A stretch of DNA of 64,000 nt. It comes from a virus. Location: the IMG/VR virus record IMGVR_UViG_3300045988_131485; one strand, 5' to 3'. Positions 12,215-12,986 of this stretch are shown in pieces; position 1 is the stretch's first letter, and each line of letters starts with the position of its first letter. The notes below the pieces were generated by a model. It saw nothing but the letters and a program-made list of their open reading frames with translations, searched no databases and was not told where the DNA came from. A program made the translations under genes and the position numbers.

Positions 12215-12338
12215 TGGAGCGGCAGGTAGGACTCGAACCTACGAATGGCAGCTTGGCTTCCTTGAACATTGCTGTTAGCGGAACTCCTCGTTTCGCATTG
12301 TAATAGGGCTGCTGTGTTGACCACTTCACCACTGCCGC
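12215..12338 (-). tRNA. tRNA gene (Gly-like, U73, CCA encoded) with about 48 nt inserted in the anticodon loop
   Basis: 124 nt. Acceptor gcggcag/ctgccgc, D arm gtg-aagtggtcaa-cac, T arm gtagg-TTCGAGT-cctac. Anticodon stem gcagc/gctgc encloses 55 nt that include AATGCG..CGCTAACAGCAAT. Confidence 0.6.
12265..12280 (-). repeat. T-type element core inside the tRNA insertion (CGCTAACAGCAATGTT)
   Basis: AATGCG lies 13 nt upstream, read in tRNA sense. Confidence 0.7.
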
Positions 12339-12343
12339 ATGAA

Positions 12344-12364
12344 GCTCGTCTTTCCGAGCCGTCA
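12344..12364 (-). repeat. third TGACG-stem-GAAAGA-stem hairpin
   Basis: TGACG GCTCG GAAAGA CGAGC, ending 5 nt before the 5' end of the tRNA at 12338 (..ttCAT|gcggcag). The equivalent context at 11535-11541 is ..ggCAT|gggagcg. Confidence 0.6.
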
Positions 12365-12477
12365 CAACCCAGTTCAAGATATTTGGGTTGAATATCTGGC
12401 GTTTACCGTCAGCATAGACATAAACGATCCCAAAGCCCTATGCCTATCCGCCCATTAGCAGGGACGGCTTCTGCTTG

Positions 12478-12594
12478 TGCCAGGGGTGGGACTCGAACCC
12501 ACGACCACGGGATTAACAGTCCATAGAAAGTTGCTGTAAGCGTCTCAACAAGACACGCATTAGTACGCGCTCTGTCCGACTGAGCTACCCTGGC
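12478..12594 (-). tRNA. tRNA-Asn (GUU) gene with a 43-nt insertion in the 5' strand of the anticodon stem
   Basis: 117 nt. Acceptor gccaggg/ccctggc, D arm gctc-agtcggaca-gagc, T arm gtggg-TTCGAGT-cccac. Removing 12523-12565 joins cg+gga to give stem cggga/tcccg around loop CTGTTAA. Confidence 0.7.
12528..12543 (-). repeat. T-type element core inside the tRNA-Asn insertion (CGCTTACAGCAACTTT)
   Basis: AATGCG lies 13 nt upstream. GCGTGTC..GAGACGC forms a stem. Confidence 0.7.
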
Positions 12595-12647
12595 GTACGC
12601 CCCGCCGTAGCGGGGCTATTTTGCATGACCCCTCTTATGTGCATTTT

Positions 12648-12815
12648 CTACTCAAACCCAGCCGTATAATACGGCAAACAGTTATACCGATCGGTTCGGC
12701 TTCCCGCACTATTATGGCTGGCGGCGAACCAGGTTTTCACCGTACTGTAAATTATCGGGGTCGAGATAATGACATACGGCAAGGAACAACAGACAAGCAA
12801 ACCCATATTCAACAT
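12648..12815 (-). CDS. possible small protein (55 aa) between two tRNA genes
   Basis: ATG 12 nt after A8-GGAGG. MLNMGLLVCCSLPYVIISTPII.. is hydrophobic at the N-terminus. This is the last part of a longer antisense ORF that I otherwise reject. Confidence 0.3.
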   Translation of the reverse strand: MLNMGLLVCCSLPYVIISTPIIYSTVKTWFAASHNSAGSRTDRYNCLPYYTAGFE

Positions 12816-12862
12816 TAGTCTGTCGCACCTCCTTTTTTTTGTAACTACACTAAGTAGCTTGT

Positions 12863-12986
12863 TGCAAGGAGTGGGACTCGAACCCACGACAATCAGTTCC
12901 CTTTTTACATAGCTGTTAGCGCAACTGGGGGAGGGGAACGTTACGCATTTTTTATACTGGTGCTCTACCAACTGAGCTACCCTTGC
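12863..12986 (-). tRNA. tRNA gene (anticodon not assignable; possibly Pro-like) with about 51 nt inserted in the anticodon loop
   Basis: 124 nt. Acceptor gcaaggg/tccttgc, D arm gctc-agttggta-gagc, T arm gtggg-TTCGAGT-cccac. Stem ccagt/actga encloses 58 nt that include AATGCG..CGCTAACAGCTAT. Confidence 0.55.
12907..12921 (-). repeat. T-type element core inside the tRNA insertion (CGCTAACAGCTATGT)
   Basis: AATGCG lies 22 nt upstream, read in tRNA sense. Confidence 0.7.

What the first reader, a model, noticed from the sequence alone, without database searches (positions are those of the whole stretch)
12215..12986. Three tRNA genes each interrupted by a 43-51 nt insertion in the anticodon arm
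Three minus-strand genes have tRNA hallmarks. Their 7-bp acceptor stems are perfect or near-perfect (gcggcag/ctgccgc, gccaggg/ccctggc, gcaaggg/tccttgc). Their D arms are canonical (for example GCTC-AGTCGGACA-GAGC), and so are their T arms (GTGGG-TTCGAGT-CCCAC). Yet they are 124, 117 and 124 nt long.

- 12478-12594: deleting 43 nt (12523-12565) joins cg+gga into a perfect stem cggga/tcccg around the loop CTGTTAA (anticodon GUU, Asn).
- 12215-12338: the stem gcagc/gctgc encloses 55 nt. The residual loop ends ..CCAA and the discriminator is U, which is Gly-like.
- 12863-12986: the stem ccagt/actga encloses 58 nt.

The neighbouring tRNA-Ser (11366-11456) is uninterrupted, so this is not a general sequence-quality problem. 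The bacterial and phage tRNA introns I know of are group I introns of more than 200 nt. Short insertions at or near the anticodon loop are an archaeal and eukaryal feature.

I see three alternatives: spliced pre-tRNAs, tRNA-derived non-coding RNAs in which the anticodon loop is replaced by a protein-binding module (compare tRNA-like Y RNAs next to bacterial Ro genes), or inactivated or decoy tRNAs.
Basis: seen in the sequence. Interest (0 to 1): 0.85.

Follow-up and report, generated by a model that had tools for sequence, protein, structure and literature searches.

The report
tRNA genes carrying a Y-RNA module
Three phage tRNA genes each carry a conserved ~40-nt structured insert that matches the motif-flanked stem junction of the small "Y RNAs" found beside Ro60-type RNA-binding proteins, and the next gene encodes such a protein, so they are most likely tRNA-shaped partner RNAs of an RNA quality-control/repair particle rather than ordinary intron-containing tRNAs.

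Summary
Rfam's tRNA model hits all three minus-strand genes above threshold, each with a ~55-nt insert.

- **The insert:** the inserts are homologous. Each is AAAAU, then a 7-bp covarying hairpin, then (U/C)AACAGCAAU.
- **The neighbour:** the adjacent gene (DUF2828+vWA) is split in this window by a 1160-bp inversion. Its predicted structure matches Ro60/TROVE proteins.
- **The association:** a DNA search using only the motif plus a T-loop recovered about 50 loci from varied genomes, mostly gut Clostridia, with a DUF2828 gene just downstream.
- **The link to Y RNAs:** distant relatives have a YrlA-type Y RNA at the same position. Free-standing Y-like units beside DUF2828 genes in Listeria, Bacillus, Felix O1 and mycobacteriophages use the same junction in open form: stem-NNACAGCAAU...AAAAU-stem.

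My best reading is that these are chimeric tRNA/Y-RNA genes whose insert docks the Ro-like protein, within a phage RNA-repair cassette (RNA ligase, Pnk-HD, nucleotidyltransferase).

Splicing is not excluded. Excision regenerates perfect anticodon arms in stem-inserted members such as gene B. Variable linkers, A33 in genes A and C, and facultative ligase linkage argue against it.

I rate this a new variant of a known kind.

The parts
12863..12986 (-). tRNA-like gene A. Pro-like: the 3' side reads AAAGGGA + ACUGA, with G35 G36 G37 A38 and discriminator A. It carries the module in the anticodon loop region.
   Evidence: Rfam tRNA 49.8 bits. Orthologues E00-E14 and relatives with UUGGGGA / UAUGGGA loops.
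12908..12951 (-). Module in gene A: AAAAU-[GCGUAAC-14 nt loop-GUUGCGC]-UAACAGCUAUG.
   Evidence: R1 covariance-model hit, 35.5 bits. Hairpin covariation.
12478..12594 (-). tRNA-like gene B (Asn type). The module sits between positions 28 and 29 of the anticodon stem. The loop CUGUUAA is intact.
   Evidence: Rfam tRNA 46.3 bits. Excision gives CGGGA-CUGUUAA-UCCCG. Relatives have AUUUUAA (Lys) and AUUGUAA (Thr), with GGA/UCC changing to GGU/ACC.
12529..12563 (-). Module in gene B: CUAAU-[GCGUGUC-UUGUU-GAGACGC]-UUACAGCAACU.
   Evidence: R1 hit, 30.5 bits.
12215..12338 (-). tRNA-like gene C (Gly type). It has GCCAA + GCUGC, discriminator U and an encoded CCA. The module is in the anticodon loop (about 32/33), leaving A33.
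   Evidence: Rfam tRNA 49.5 bits. The wobble position varies GCC/UCC/ACC in relatives, and E32 and L193 regenerate CUGCCAA / CUUCCAA.
12267..12301 (-). Module in gene C: ACAAU-[GCGAAAC-GAGGA-GUUCCGC]-UAACAGCAAUG.
   Evidence: R1 hit, 37.2 bits.
11540..11651 (+). Fourth module-bearing tRNA-like gene ('class D'). It has acceptor UGGGAGC/GCUCCUA, a T arm and an intact anticodon arm AAAGU-CUGCAAA-ACUUU. The D-arm region is replaced by the module. The module loop pairs with the 3' trailer (CCGUC, 11656-11660).
   Evidence: R1 hit at 11562-11597, E 0.006. Conserved in relatives, with anticodon changes and loop-trailer covariation.
11297..11353 (+). Free-standing 'open' Y-like unit just upstream of tRNA-Ser: [GAGGCGC]-UAACAGCAAU...UCAAU-[GCGUCUC].
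   Evidence: Read directly. Class statistics.
11857..11911 (+). Free-standing 'open' Y-like unit: [GGGGCAC]-UAACAGCAAC...GAGAAU-[GUGUCCC].
   Evidence: 7/7 downstream partner. Sequence.
13004..13032 (-). Degenerate closed module in the 5' leader of gene A: AUGCGU...ACGCA-GACAGCAAUG.
   Evidence: Weak R1 hit, E 2.5. Repeat family D3.
12172..12207 (-). Y-like unit in the leader of the Ro-like mRNA, about 30-65 nt upstream of the start codon: [GGGCA]-UAAACAGCAAC...AAAAAGUG-[UGUCC].
   Evidence: Conserved, with stem covariation (GAACAC/GUGUUC, AAGACAC/GUGUCUU), across relatives. 47 of 65 leaders carry the motif 30-130 nt upstream.
11923..12141 (-). N-terminal 73 codons of the Ro60-like (DUF2828) gene, detached by the inversion.
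   Evidence: Pfam DUF2828 positions 1-52. Contiguous with the C-terminal part in L121 and more than 40 other loci.
13071..14420 (+). C-terminal body of the Ro60-like protein (DUF2828 + DUF7788/vWA, with MIDAS motif DxSxS..T..D).
   Evidence: Pfam. AlphaFold2 model pLDDT 93.5. Top nine PDB fold matches are all Ro60/TROVE. MIDAS residues invariant.
11923..13082 (.). Inverted segment bounded by a perfect 12-bp inverted repeat (11923-11934 and 13071-13082). It contains genes A, B and C, the leader unit and the Ro-like N terminus.
   Evidence: 99.7% identical, in reverse, to L121 5060-6219, with collinear flanks. Inverted repeat (I17). The repeat pair is conserved in relatives, all of which are un-inverted.
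11366..11456 (+). Ordinary tRNA-Ser(GCU), part of the same RNA gene array.
   Evidence: ARAGORN and Rfam.
15697..17105 (+). ATP-dependent RNA ligase (phrog_968). It is frameshifted in this window by a 1-nt deletion.
   Evidence: PHROG hits on both ORF halves. Intact 469-residue open frame in L121 and L213.
17215..18964 (+). Nucleotidyltransferase (17215-18048) and polynucleotide kinase + HD phosphoesterase (18050-18964). These are end-healing partners of the ligase.
   Evidence: PHROG phrog_388. Pfam AAA_33 + HD.

Best explanation
Each of the three genes encodes a chimeric RNA. It is a complete tRNA body (acceptor stem, D arm, T arm, and some or all of the anticodon arm) whose anticodon arm carries a side branch. 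The branch is a closed version of the stem-plus-motif junction that defines the Y-like RNAs found beside DUF2828-type Ro60-like proteins.

In the ancestral orientation, seen in relatives, the array is co-directional. It runs tRNA-Ser, free Y-like units, the module-bearing tRNAs and a leader Y-like unit. The Ro60-like gene follows, then a desulfurase, an RNA ligase, a nucleotidyltransferase and Pnk-HD.

Inferred mechanism:
1. The polycistronic RNA is cut into units by RNase P and RNase Z at the tRNA ends.
2. The ring-shaped Ro-like protein docks on the hairpin with its AAAAU and UAACAGCAAU flanks.
3. The tRNA body stabilises the RNA. It also presents a tRNA surface, including a real anticodon loop and synthetase identity elements, to tRNA-recognising factors. 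These could be the phage heal-and-seal enzymes, host PNPase or host anticodon nucleases.
4. The copy of the motif in the Ro-like mRNA leader would allow autoregulation.
5. The particle would serve tRNA surveillance or repair during infection, alongside the NAD-salvage counter-defence genes downstream.

Shown here: the RNA anatomy, its conservation and covariation, the gene linkage, and the Ro60 fold.

Inferred, not shown: protein binding, processing and physiological role.
For: 1. The three genes pass the tRNA model.

2. The inserts share a module whose 7-bp hairpin covaries. 93% of cells are paired, against 68% in shuffles and 29-47% in slid controls. Five of 7 pairs show double changes, and G-U pairs occur on the tRNA-sense strand. 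ACAGC is invariant.

3. The module occurs 3-6 times per locus, always on the gene strand and always upstream of the DUF2828 gene. It appears in 20 of the 26 viral loci scanned, and the 43 loci yielded 63 distinct sequences.

4. The DUF2828-vWA model (pLDDT 93.5) matches only Ro60/TROVE structures at E below 1e-4. These are 9kop, 2i91, 1yvr and 9nf8, with TM about 0.5-0.56 over the full length. The MIDAS residues are invariant. The family is annotated 'Ro-like RNA binding protein' in mycobacteriophages.

5. A genome-wide DNA search defined only by the motif plus a T-loop returned about 50 loci with a DUF2828 gene adjacent, at 26-97% identity, across many taxa. 61 of 65 distinct Ro-like leaders have a same-strand T-loop upstream.

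6. In distant relatives the same position holds a YrlA-type Y RNA: L159 at E 5e-8 and mycobacteriophage L262 full length. L159 shares the CG...CG junction and the UAAAAU-hairpin-..CAGCAAU arrangement with gene B.

7. Free-standing Y-like units beside DUF2828 genes in Listeria, Bacillus, Felix O1 and mycobacteriophages use the same junction opened at the other end. This is supported statistically: 148 of 505 sites have a 7/7 partner, against 50 in the null.

8. Published precedent: Y RNA genes lie beside Ro60 genes in bacteria and phages and mimic tRNA (PMC4201824). Phage phiLo Ro60 binds two upstream Y-like RNAs (PMC12135203).
Against: - No binding or expression data exist.
- Rfam YrlA does not hit the window at E up to 10, and ACAGCAA is not in the YrlA consensus. 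The link to established Ro60-binding modules is therefore by position and architecture, not by sequence identity.
- A pure protein-docking scaffold does not obviously need a canonical, selected anticodon stem-loop. Yet stem-inserted members keep one, with compensatory changes spanning the insert. Many members encode CCA. These features fit decoding tRNAs that would need the insert removed.
- In this particular window the Ro-like gene is broken by the inversion and the ligase is frameshifted. The system may be inactive here.
Confidence: 0.6

Rival explanations
1. These are intron-containing pre-tRNAs. The module is an intervening sequence that is cut out by an unidentified endonuclease, possibly guided by the Ro-like protein. 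The exons are healed and sealed by the neighbouring Pnk-HD and RNA ligase, or by host RtcB. The products are functional tRNA-Pro, tRNA-Asn and tRNA-Gly, and perhaps a free ~45-nt Y-like RNA as well.
For: - Excision regenerates a perfect 5-bp stem with a 7-nt loop, U33 and a purine at 37 in 37 of 103 elements. That set includes every member I inspected whose insert lies in the stem strand at positions 27-30, covering Asn, Lys, Thr, Asp, Ile, Arg and Pro.
- The 27-43 and 28-42 pairs span the insert and use C-G, G-C, U-A, A-U and G-U.
- Only the wobble position varies in the Gly type.
- CCA is encoded in many members.
- RNA ligase, Pnk-HD and a nucleotidyltransferase lie 2-6 kb downstream in close relatives.
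- Insert positions vary, as with archaeal non-canonical introns.
- Lak phages have unexplained tRNA introns (10.1101/356790).
Against: - I saw no bulge-helix-bulge or other fixed splice-site geometry (inspection). The linkers between exon and module vary: 0-8 nt on the 5' side and 4-12 nt on the 3' side.
- Loop-inserted members, including window genes A and C, would have A33 or otherwise non-canonical loops. E18 and E33 would have 8-nt loops.
- The ligase is missing from the cassette in L129 and L134, although they have 3 and 6 module-bearing genes. It is not within 7 kb in L142-L153.
- No candidate endonuclease was found.
- The same junction occurs in free-standing units and in permuted YrlA-type RNAs that have no anticodon arm.
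- No ribozyme or group I family hit.
Confidence: 0.25
2. These are decaying tRNA genes hit by a small selfish insertion element (a MITE-like or mobile mini-intron). On this view neither the insert nor the interrupted genes have a function.
For: - The module sits at many different positions: 27/28 to 33/34, the D loop, the D arm, leaders and trailers.
- It sits in many different tRNA bodies, as a mobile element would.
- This window's copy of the locus is rearranged and frameshifted.
Against: - The tRNA bodies still score about 50 bits and keep compensatory changes in all stems.
- The module hairpin covaries at the RNA level, with G-U pairs.
- The arrangement is conserved down to about 36% identity of the partner protein.
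- Orientation is always the tRNA sense.
- No uninterrupted orthologue of gene B exists in the viral collection.
Confidence: 0.05
3. The motif acts at the DNA level, as a phage promoter or a recombination site (shufflon-like) that happens to lie inside tRNA genes. It might be related to the inversion seen in the window.
For: - The motif is repeated at least eight times within 1.8 kb.
- The segment is inverted.
- A weak recombinase-like ORF lies upstream at 9981-10898.
Against: - The inversion joins at a different 12-bp repeat (AAATGGCTCTTT), not at the motif.
- The motif is not found upstream of other genes in the 64-kb window beyond chance.
- Hairpin covariation includes G-U pairs that would be A-C mismatches on the other strand.
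- All copies share the strand of the RNA genes.
Confidence: 0.03

Closest known systems
YrlA-type bacterial and phage Y RNAs with their Ro60 (Rsr) partner (Rfam RF02553; Chen et al. 2014, PMC4201824)
   Same: - The small RNAs are encoded immediately beside a Ro60-type gene, often several per locus and often co-transcribed with tRNAs.
[quoted passage not shown]
- They are linked to RNA-repair genes (rtcBA in Salmonella; Rnl and Pnk-HD here).
- Distant relatives of this locus carry a YrlA-scoring RNA at the same position.
   Different: - YrlA is circularly permuted relative to tRNA: the acceptor stem is closed and the RNA ends form the Ro-binding stem in place of the anticodon arm.
- Here the acceptor end is free (CCA is encoded in gene C) and the stem junction is closed by a loop and grafted onto the anticodon arm. 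An anticodon loop is often retained as a third branch.
- The window gives no YrlA hit.
- The ACAGCAA signature is absent from the YrlA consensus.
- The partner protein belongs to Pfam DUF2828, not TROVE.
Thermus phage phiLo Ro60 with Yrl1/Yrl2 (PDB 9KOP, 9L5Y; PMC12135203)
   Same: - It is a phage-encoded Ro60-fold protein with two Y-like RNA genes just upstream.
- It is the best structural match to the protein here.
- It is proposed to co-opt host PNPase as a counter-defence.
   Different: - The phiLo Yrl RNAs are described as stem-bulge-stem RNAs with a CGAA motif, not as tRNA genes with inserts.
- Sequence identity to the protein here is about 15%.
Archaeal and eukaryal enzymatically spliced tRNA introns (bulge-helix-bulge, EndA/Sen plus ligase)
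   Same: - The inserts are short (tens of nt), lie in or near the anticodon arm, and sit at variable non-canonical positions.
- A heal-and-seal ligase pathway is encoded nearby.
   Different: - I found no BHB motif.
- No EndA-like gene was found.
- The insert has its own conserved sequence and structure shared with free-standing RNAs.
- Several members would not yield canonical loops.
Lak megaphage 'enigmatic' tRNA introns (Devoto et al., 10.1101/356790 / PMC6784885)
   Same: These are gut phage tRNA genes that are longer than expected because of inserts of unknown mechanism.
   Different: - The stored supplementary intron table contains no ACAGCAA.
- One listed example is 93 nt, longer than the inserts here, and one is reported to look like a tRNA itself.
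- No Ro-like linkage was reported.

Membership tests
tRNA (Rfam RF00005) | Covariance-model score at or above the gathering threshold (29 bits) | tested here: met
   49.8, 49.5 and 46.3 bits for A, C and B. The insert is skipped as a local end.
tRNA (Rfam RF00005) | Contiguous 5-bp anticodon stem with a 7-nt loop (U33, purine 37) | tested here: not met
   All three genes are interrupted. After hypothetical excision B becomes canonical, while A and C give A33 loops.
YrlA / Y RNA-like (Rfam RF02553) | Covariance-model match | tested here: not met
   No YrlA hit in 10500-14000 at E up to 10. Relatives L159 and L262 do hit, at 42 and 39.8 bits, below the gathering score of 69.
YrlA / Y RNA-like (Rfam RF02553) | Permuted topology: closed acceptor stem, with the RNA termini forming the Ro-binding stem | tested here: not met
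   The acceptor ends are free, and the stem is closed by a loop inside the anticodon arm.
YrlA / Y RNA-like (Rfam RF02553) | tRNA-like D and T arms, and a gene adjacent to a Ro60-type gene | tested here: met
   tRNA-model alignment. The Ro-like gene lies directly downstream in the un-inverted arrangement.
Y RNA (functional definition) | Stable binding to the Ro60 protein | not testable with these tools
   Needs RIP, EMSA or a structure.
Ro60 / TROVE proteins (for the neighbouring gene) | HEAT-repeat ring plus a C-terminal vWA domain with a MIDAS motif | tested here: met
   Foldseek top nine hits are all Ro60/TROVE, probability 1.0, TM 0.49-0.56. D298, S300, S302, T371 and D403 are invariant.
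Ro60 / TROVE proteins (for the neighbouring gene) | Pfam TROVE (PF05731) sequence match | tested here: not met
   Pfam gives DUF2828 + DUF7788 only. The profile-versus-PDB search reaches Ro60 only at E 0.06.
BHB-type spliced tRNA intron | Bulge-helix-bulge at the exon-intron junctions; canonical 37/38 position | tested here: not met
   I saw no BHB in the minimum-free-energy folds or by inspection. Positions are 28/29, about 31-33 and about 32/33. The 37/38 assignments give A34 anticodons.
Group I intron in bacterial or phage tRNA | More than 200 nt with a P1-P9 core; Rfam Intron_gpI match | tested here: not met
   The inserts are 43-58 nt. No ribozyme or intron family matched at E up to 10.

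The most novel reading that the evidence does not exclude
The genes are dual-output. A phage-directed, protein-catalysed tRNA splicing pathway in bacteria excises the module, and the exons are joined by the phage Pnk-HD and RNA ligase. This yields both a functional tRNA and a free Y RNA that loads onto the Ro60-like protein. That would be the first enzymatic, non-group-I tRNA splicing system in the bacterial or phage world, with a Y RNA as the intron.
Probability: 0.2. Interest if true: 0.9.

Novelty: new variant of a known kind. Interest (0 to 1): 0.66.

Why it matters
Ro60 and Y RNA particles are conserved from bacteria to humans, yet their RNA partners in most phages and bacteria are unannotated.

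- **A searchable signature.** This finding defines a simple pattern: a stem flanked by AAAAU and NNACAGCAAU. It marks the partner RNAs of the large DUF2828 branch of Ro-like proteins, which occurs in 702 cultured-phage records and thousands of metagenomic proteins.
- **A new arrangement.** In gut Clostridia phages the module has been grafted into otherwise complete tRNAs.
- **A link to tRNA biology.** The chimeras tie Ro particles directly to specific tRNA identities and to heal-and-seal enzymes. That makes the long-standing question of what the tRNA-like part of bacterial Y RNAs is for experimentally approachable.
- **A practical point.** tRNA finders miss these genes, and genome annotations leave the regions blank.

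Tried and rejected
- **Standard ARAGORN:** misses all three genes. Intron mode forces position 37/38 and gives meaningless A34 anticodons.
- **Rfam at E up to 10 on the region:** no ribozyme, group I or YrlA hit.
- **Nearest cultured phages by DNA:** only the tRNA-Ser matched, to crAss-like phages.
- **Motif as a genome-wide promoter:** GCTAACAGC is at chance level outside 11.3-13.0 kb.
- **First viral DNA pattern** (AATGCG..CGCTAACAGC): mostly chance hits.
- **Literature:** 'DUF2828' returns only incidental plant papers. Burroughs & Aravind 2016 is not held. No paper on this module was found.
- **Single-sequence PDB search with the Ro-like protein:** nothing. The profile search was only marginal, so a structure prediction was needed.
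- **A P0 helix between the A-rich 5' linker and the U-rich 3' linker:** present in some members (L228, L208) but not general, so not claimed.
- **Pairing of ACAGCAA with other tRNA parts:** none found.
- **Search for an uninterrupted orthologue of gene B:** only an unrelated tRNA-Lys.
- **MAFFT alignment of real modules (A3):** mis-registered the short-loop members, so I used a loop-trimmed alignment (A2) for pair counting and for the model.
- **P0002 integrase fusion:** this is a Tn916-like insertion and is irrelevant to the RNAs.
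Full report
**1. The observation**

The three minus-strand genes exist as described. Rfam's tRNA model matches 12863-12986 (gene A), 12478-12594 (gene B) and 12218-12338 (gene C) at 46-50 bits, against a gathering score of 29. In each case a 54-56-nt block in the anticodon arm is skipped. Standard ARAGORN sees only the uninterrupted tRNA-Ser at 11366-11456. With introns permitted it calls all three, but forcing the canonical 37/38 position produces the anticodons AAA, AAU and AUU, which are not credible.

**2. The inserts are one conserved, structured module**

The three inserts align with each other. Using the reconstituted neighbouring protein as a probe, I fetched 43 related viral loci. 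I collected 107 interrupted tRNA-like genes from them, 63 of them distinct, at three to six per locus.

All share the same core: AA(U/C), then G(C/U)G-NNNN, a loop of 3-14 nt, NNNN-C(G/A)C, then (U/C)NACAGCAAU.

I anchored the hairpin arms only on the conserved flanks and the outer three pairs. The inner four positions still pair in 157 of 184 cases. On a loop-trimmed alignment:
- 93% of cells are paired, against 68% in shuffles and 29-47% when the partner is slid.
- Five of seven pairs show changes on both sides.
- G-U pairs occur on the tRNA-sense strand, so the constraint is on RNA, not DNA.

A covariance model of the module (R1) finds four significant copies in the window. Three are the known inserts. 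The fourth is at 11562-11597 on the + strand, inside a previously unrecognised tRNA-Cys-like gene. Weaker copies lie in the same 2 kb. In 26 related loci all 74 hits are on the gene strand and upstream of the neighbouring protein gene.

**3. Context: an inversion hides the real gene order**

A DUF2828 gene is split in the window. Its first 73 codons run on the minus strand from 12141 to 11923. The rest continues on the plus strand from 13071. A perfect 12-bp inverted repeat sits at the two break points. Window 11923-13082 is 99.7% identical to L121 in reverse, with collinear flanks.

More than 40 relatives have the intact gene. The repeat pair is conserved in the close ones, but only this window is flipped. 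The same window also has a 1-nt deletion that frameshifts the RNA ligase. The ligase is intact in L121 and in a Dysosmobacter isolate.

In the ancestral order everything is co-directional:
1. tRNA-Ser
2. the Cys-like gene
3. genes A, B and C
4. DUF2828-vWA
5. a NifS-like desulfurase
6. RNA ligase
7. nucleotidyltransferase
8. polynucleotide kinase + HD phosphoesterase
9. a PP-loop protein
10. an NAD-salvage block

**4. The neighbouring protein is Ro60-like**

- A profile of 73 homologues reaches Ro60 and TROVE entries in the PDB only marginally.
- An AlphaFold2 model is confident (pLDDT 93.5, pTM 0.92).
- Its nine best PDB matches are all Ro60/TROVE structures aligned over the full length (E 1e-7 to 2e-5, TM 0.49-0.56). 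The best is the Thermus phage phiLo Ro60.
- The MIDAS residues are invariant.
- PHROGs calls the family 'RNA-binding protein'.
- Mycobacteriophage records annotate it 'Ro-like RNA binding protein'.

**5. The linkage is broad and specific**

I searched 185,579 genomes with a DNA pattern made only of the motif and a T-loop. It returned 95 loci, with a rough expectation of 58 by chance. There is a clear excess in gut Clostridia, including cultured isolates. About 50 of the 80 listed loci have a DUF2828 gene within the 8-kb stretch. Protein identity runs from 26 to 97%, and the MAGs carry many different taxon labels.

Of 65 distinct Ro-like gene leaders, 61 have a same-strand T-loop upstream. 47 have the CAGC motif 30-130 nt before the start codon, against roughly 15% expected.

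The ligase, kinase and nucleotidyltransferase genes accompany only the closer subset. L129 and L134 keep three and six module-bearing genes without the ligase in the cassette. The L142-L153 group has none of these enzymes within 7 kb.

**6. The module is the Y-RNA junction in a different topology**

In L159-L162 (35% protein identity) the Ro-like gene is preceded by an RNA with this layout: tRNA 3' half, 2-nt link, tRNA 5' half, UAAAAU, hairpin..UUCAGCAAU. A sigma-70-type promoter sequence lies just upstream. Rfam YrlA matches its core at E 5e-8. Mycobacteriophage AvadaKedavra has a full-length YrlA match next to its Ro-like gene.

I read the unannotated DNA beside DUF2828 genes in Listeria phage LMTA-57, Bacillus phage Thrax2, Felix O1-like FO1a and the mycobacteriophage. 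Every unit has the form [stem 5' strand]-NN-ACAGCAAU ... AAAAU(G)-[stem 3' strand]. The window's insert is the same helix end with the same two conserved tails, but the far end of the helix is closed by a loop and the tails run into the tRNA.

Across 505 distinct motif sites, a perfect 7-bp partner downstream occurs 148 times against 50 in a matched null. A perfect partner upstream occurs 64 times against 17. The bases before the 3' strand are again ..AAU.

The window itself contains open units at 11297-11353 and 11857-11911. A third sits in the Ro-like mRNA leader at 12207-12172, and its stem covaries among relatives.

ACAGCAA is not part of the Rfam YrlA consensus. It therefore appears to mark the RNAs of the DUF2828 branch specifically.

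**7. Spliced or not?**

I tested every element for a contiguous deletion that would rebuild a canonical anticodon arm.
- Members with the module in the 5' strand of the stem (27/28 to 29/30, including gene B) all give perfect arms. These cover Asn, Lys, Thr, Asp, Ile, Arg and Pro. The pairs that span the insert use five different base-pair types.
- Members with the module in the loop, including genes A and C, mostly end up with A33. Only two relatives regenerate CUGCCAA or CUUCCAA.
- Two B-type relatives would have 8-nt loops.
- The linkers between exon and module vary in length, and I found no bulge-helix-bulge.
- Positions 35-36 and the discriminator hold while the wobble base varies. That pattern would fit selection on synthetase recognition or decoding.

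I conclude that the anticodon arm is functional in many members, but the data do not show removal of the insert. The free-standing and permuted relatives show that the module's own role does not depend on a tRNA product.

**8. Comparison with what is known**

- Y RNA genes beside Ro60 genes, tRNA mimicry by YrlA, co-transcription with tRNAs, and RNase P cleavage plus CCA addition of a mycobacterial YrlA are all published (PMC4201824).
- A phage Ro60 binding two upstream Y-like RNAs and forming complexes with host PNPase is published (PMC12135203).
- The Salmonella rsr-yrlA-rtcBA operon links Ro to tRNA damage (PMC7790460).

Three things are not described in anything I could search:
1. The non-permuted form: a complete tRNA with a free acceptor end and, often, a live anticodon loop, carrying the junction as a grafted branch.
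2. The ACAGCAA signature.
3. The wide occurrence of both in gut phages and prophages.

Lak megaphage tRNA introns are a different insert: their stored supplementary table contains no ACAGCAA.

**9. Verdict**

- The finding is a new variant of a known kind, tRNA-embedded Y-RNA modules partnering a Ro60-like protein in a phage RNA-repair cassette.
- Confidence is 0.6 for the RNP-partner model and 0.25 for obligatory splicing.
- The copy in this window is rearranged and may be non-functional.

Noticed in passing
window 11923-13082, with inverted repeats at 11923-11934 and 13071-13082: A 1160-bp segment is inverted relative to every relative. It carries genes A-C, the leader unit and the first 73 codons of the Ro-like gene. 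The inversion occurred across a perfect 12-bp inverted repeat that is itself conserved in relatives. It could be an intragenic inverton (an on/off switch for the Ro-like gene), a one-off rearrangement or an assembly artefact.
   Followed up: partly
window 15697-17105: The RNA ligase gene is split into two frames by a 1-nt deletion. The open frame is intact (469 residues) in L121 and in the Dysosmobacter segnis locus L213.
   Followed up: yes
window 11540-11660 (+): A tRNA-Cys-like gene is missed by ARAGORN and Rfam. The module replaces its D arm and the anticodon arm is intact. The anticodon changes among relatives (GCA, UGA, GGA). The module's hairpin loop is complementary to the 3' trailer, with covariation (GACGG/CCGUC, AUCGGC/GCCGAU, AACGGC/GCCGUU).
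   Followed up: partly
L263 1106-1500 (Listeria phage LMTA-57), L264 864-1488 (Bacillus phage Thrax2), L261 3200-3460 (Salmonella phage FO1a), L262 2950-3280 (mycobacteriophage AvadaKedavra): Cultured, well-known phages have unannotated Y-like RNA units next to their DUF2828 genes. Each is a stem followed by NNACAGCAAU, with ..AAAU before the return strand. The Listeria phage also has a 'tRNA-splicing ligase' gene nearby.
   Followed up: partly
L159 5795-5945 (also L160-L162): A circularly permuted tRNA-like RNA sits behind a TTGACT-17-TATAAT promoter sequence. Its acceptor stem is closed by a 2-nt loop. It scores as YrlA (E 5e-8) and ends in a module-like ..UUCAGCAAU, directly upstream of a 35%-identical DUF2828 gene.
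   Followed up: partly
window 12648-12815 (-): A small ORF of 55 codons with a strong ribosome-binding site (GGAGGTG) lies between genes A and B. In relatives such as L127-L132, A and B are only about 5 nt apart, so this looks like an insertion of roughly 265 nt.
   Followed up: no
L163-L165 (protein P0002): In some human-gut assemblies a Tn916-like element (integrase and two Xis genes) has inserted into the 3' end of the Ro-like gene. This creates a 785-aa fusion ORF. It suggests a Firmicute host.
   Followed up: partly
window 19507-25874: Downstream of the RNA-repair genes lies a counter-defence-like metabolic block. It contains a PAPS-reductase/PP-loop protein, a THF dehydrogenase-like protein, a nicotinamidase-like isochorismatase, a PRPP synthetase-like protein, a NAMPT-like protein and NAD synthase (NAD salvage).
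   Followed up: no
window 9981-10898 (+), with 9398-9859 and 10920-11270: Three ORFs of unknown function are conserved upstream of the RNA array in nearly all module-bearing relatives (28-100% identity). The 305-aa ORF has a weak hit to a tyrosine-recombinase core-binding domain. It could be the invertase, or simply syntenic.
   Followed up: no
L141 5659-5778 (element E35): In this tRNA-like gene the same module sits in the D loop (between AGUC and GGAUA) rather than in the anticodon arm.
   Followed up: no
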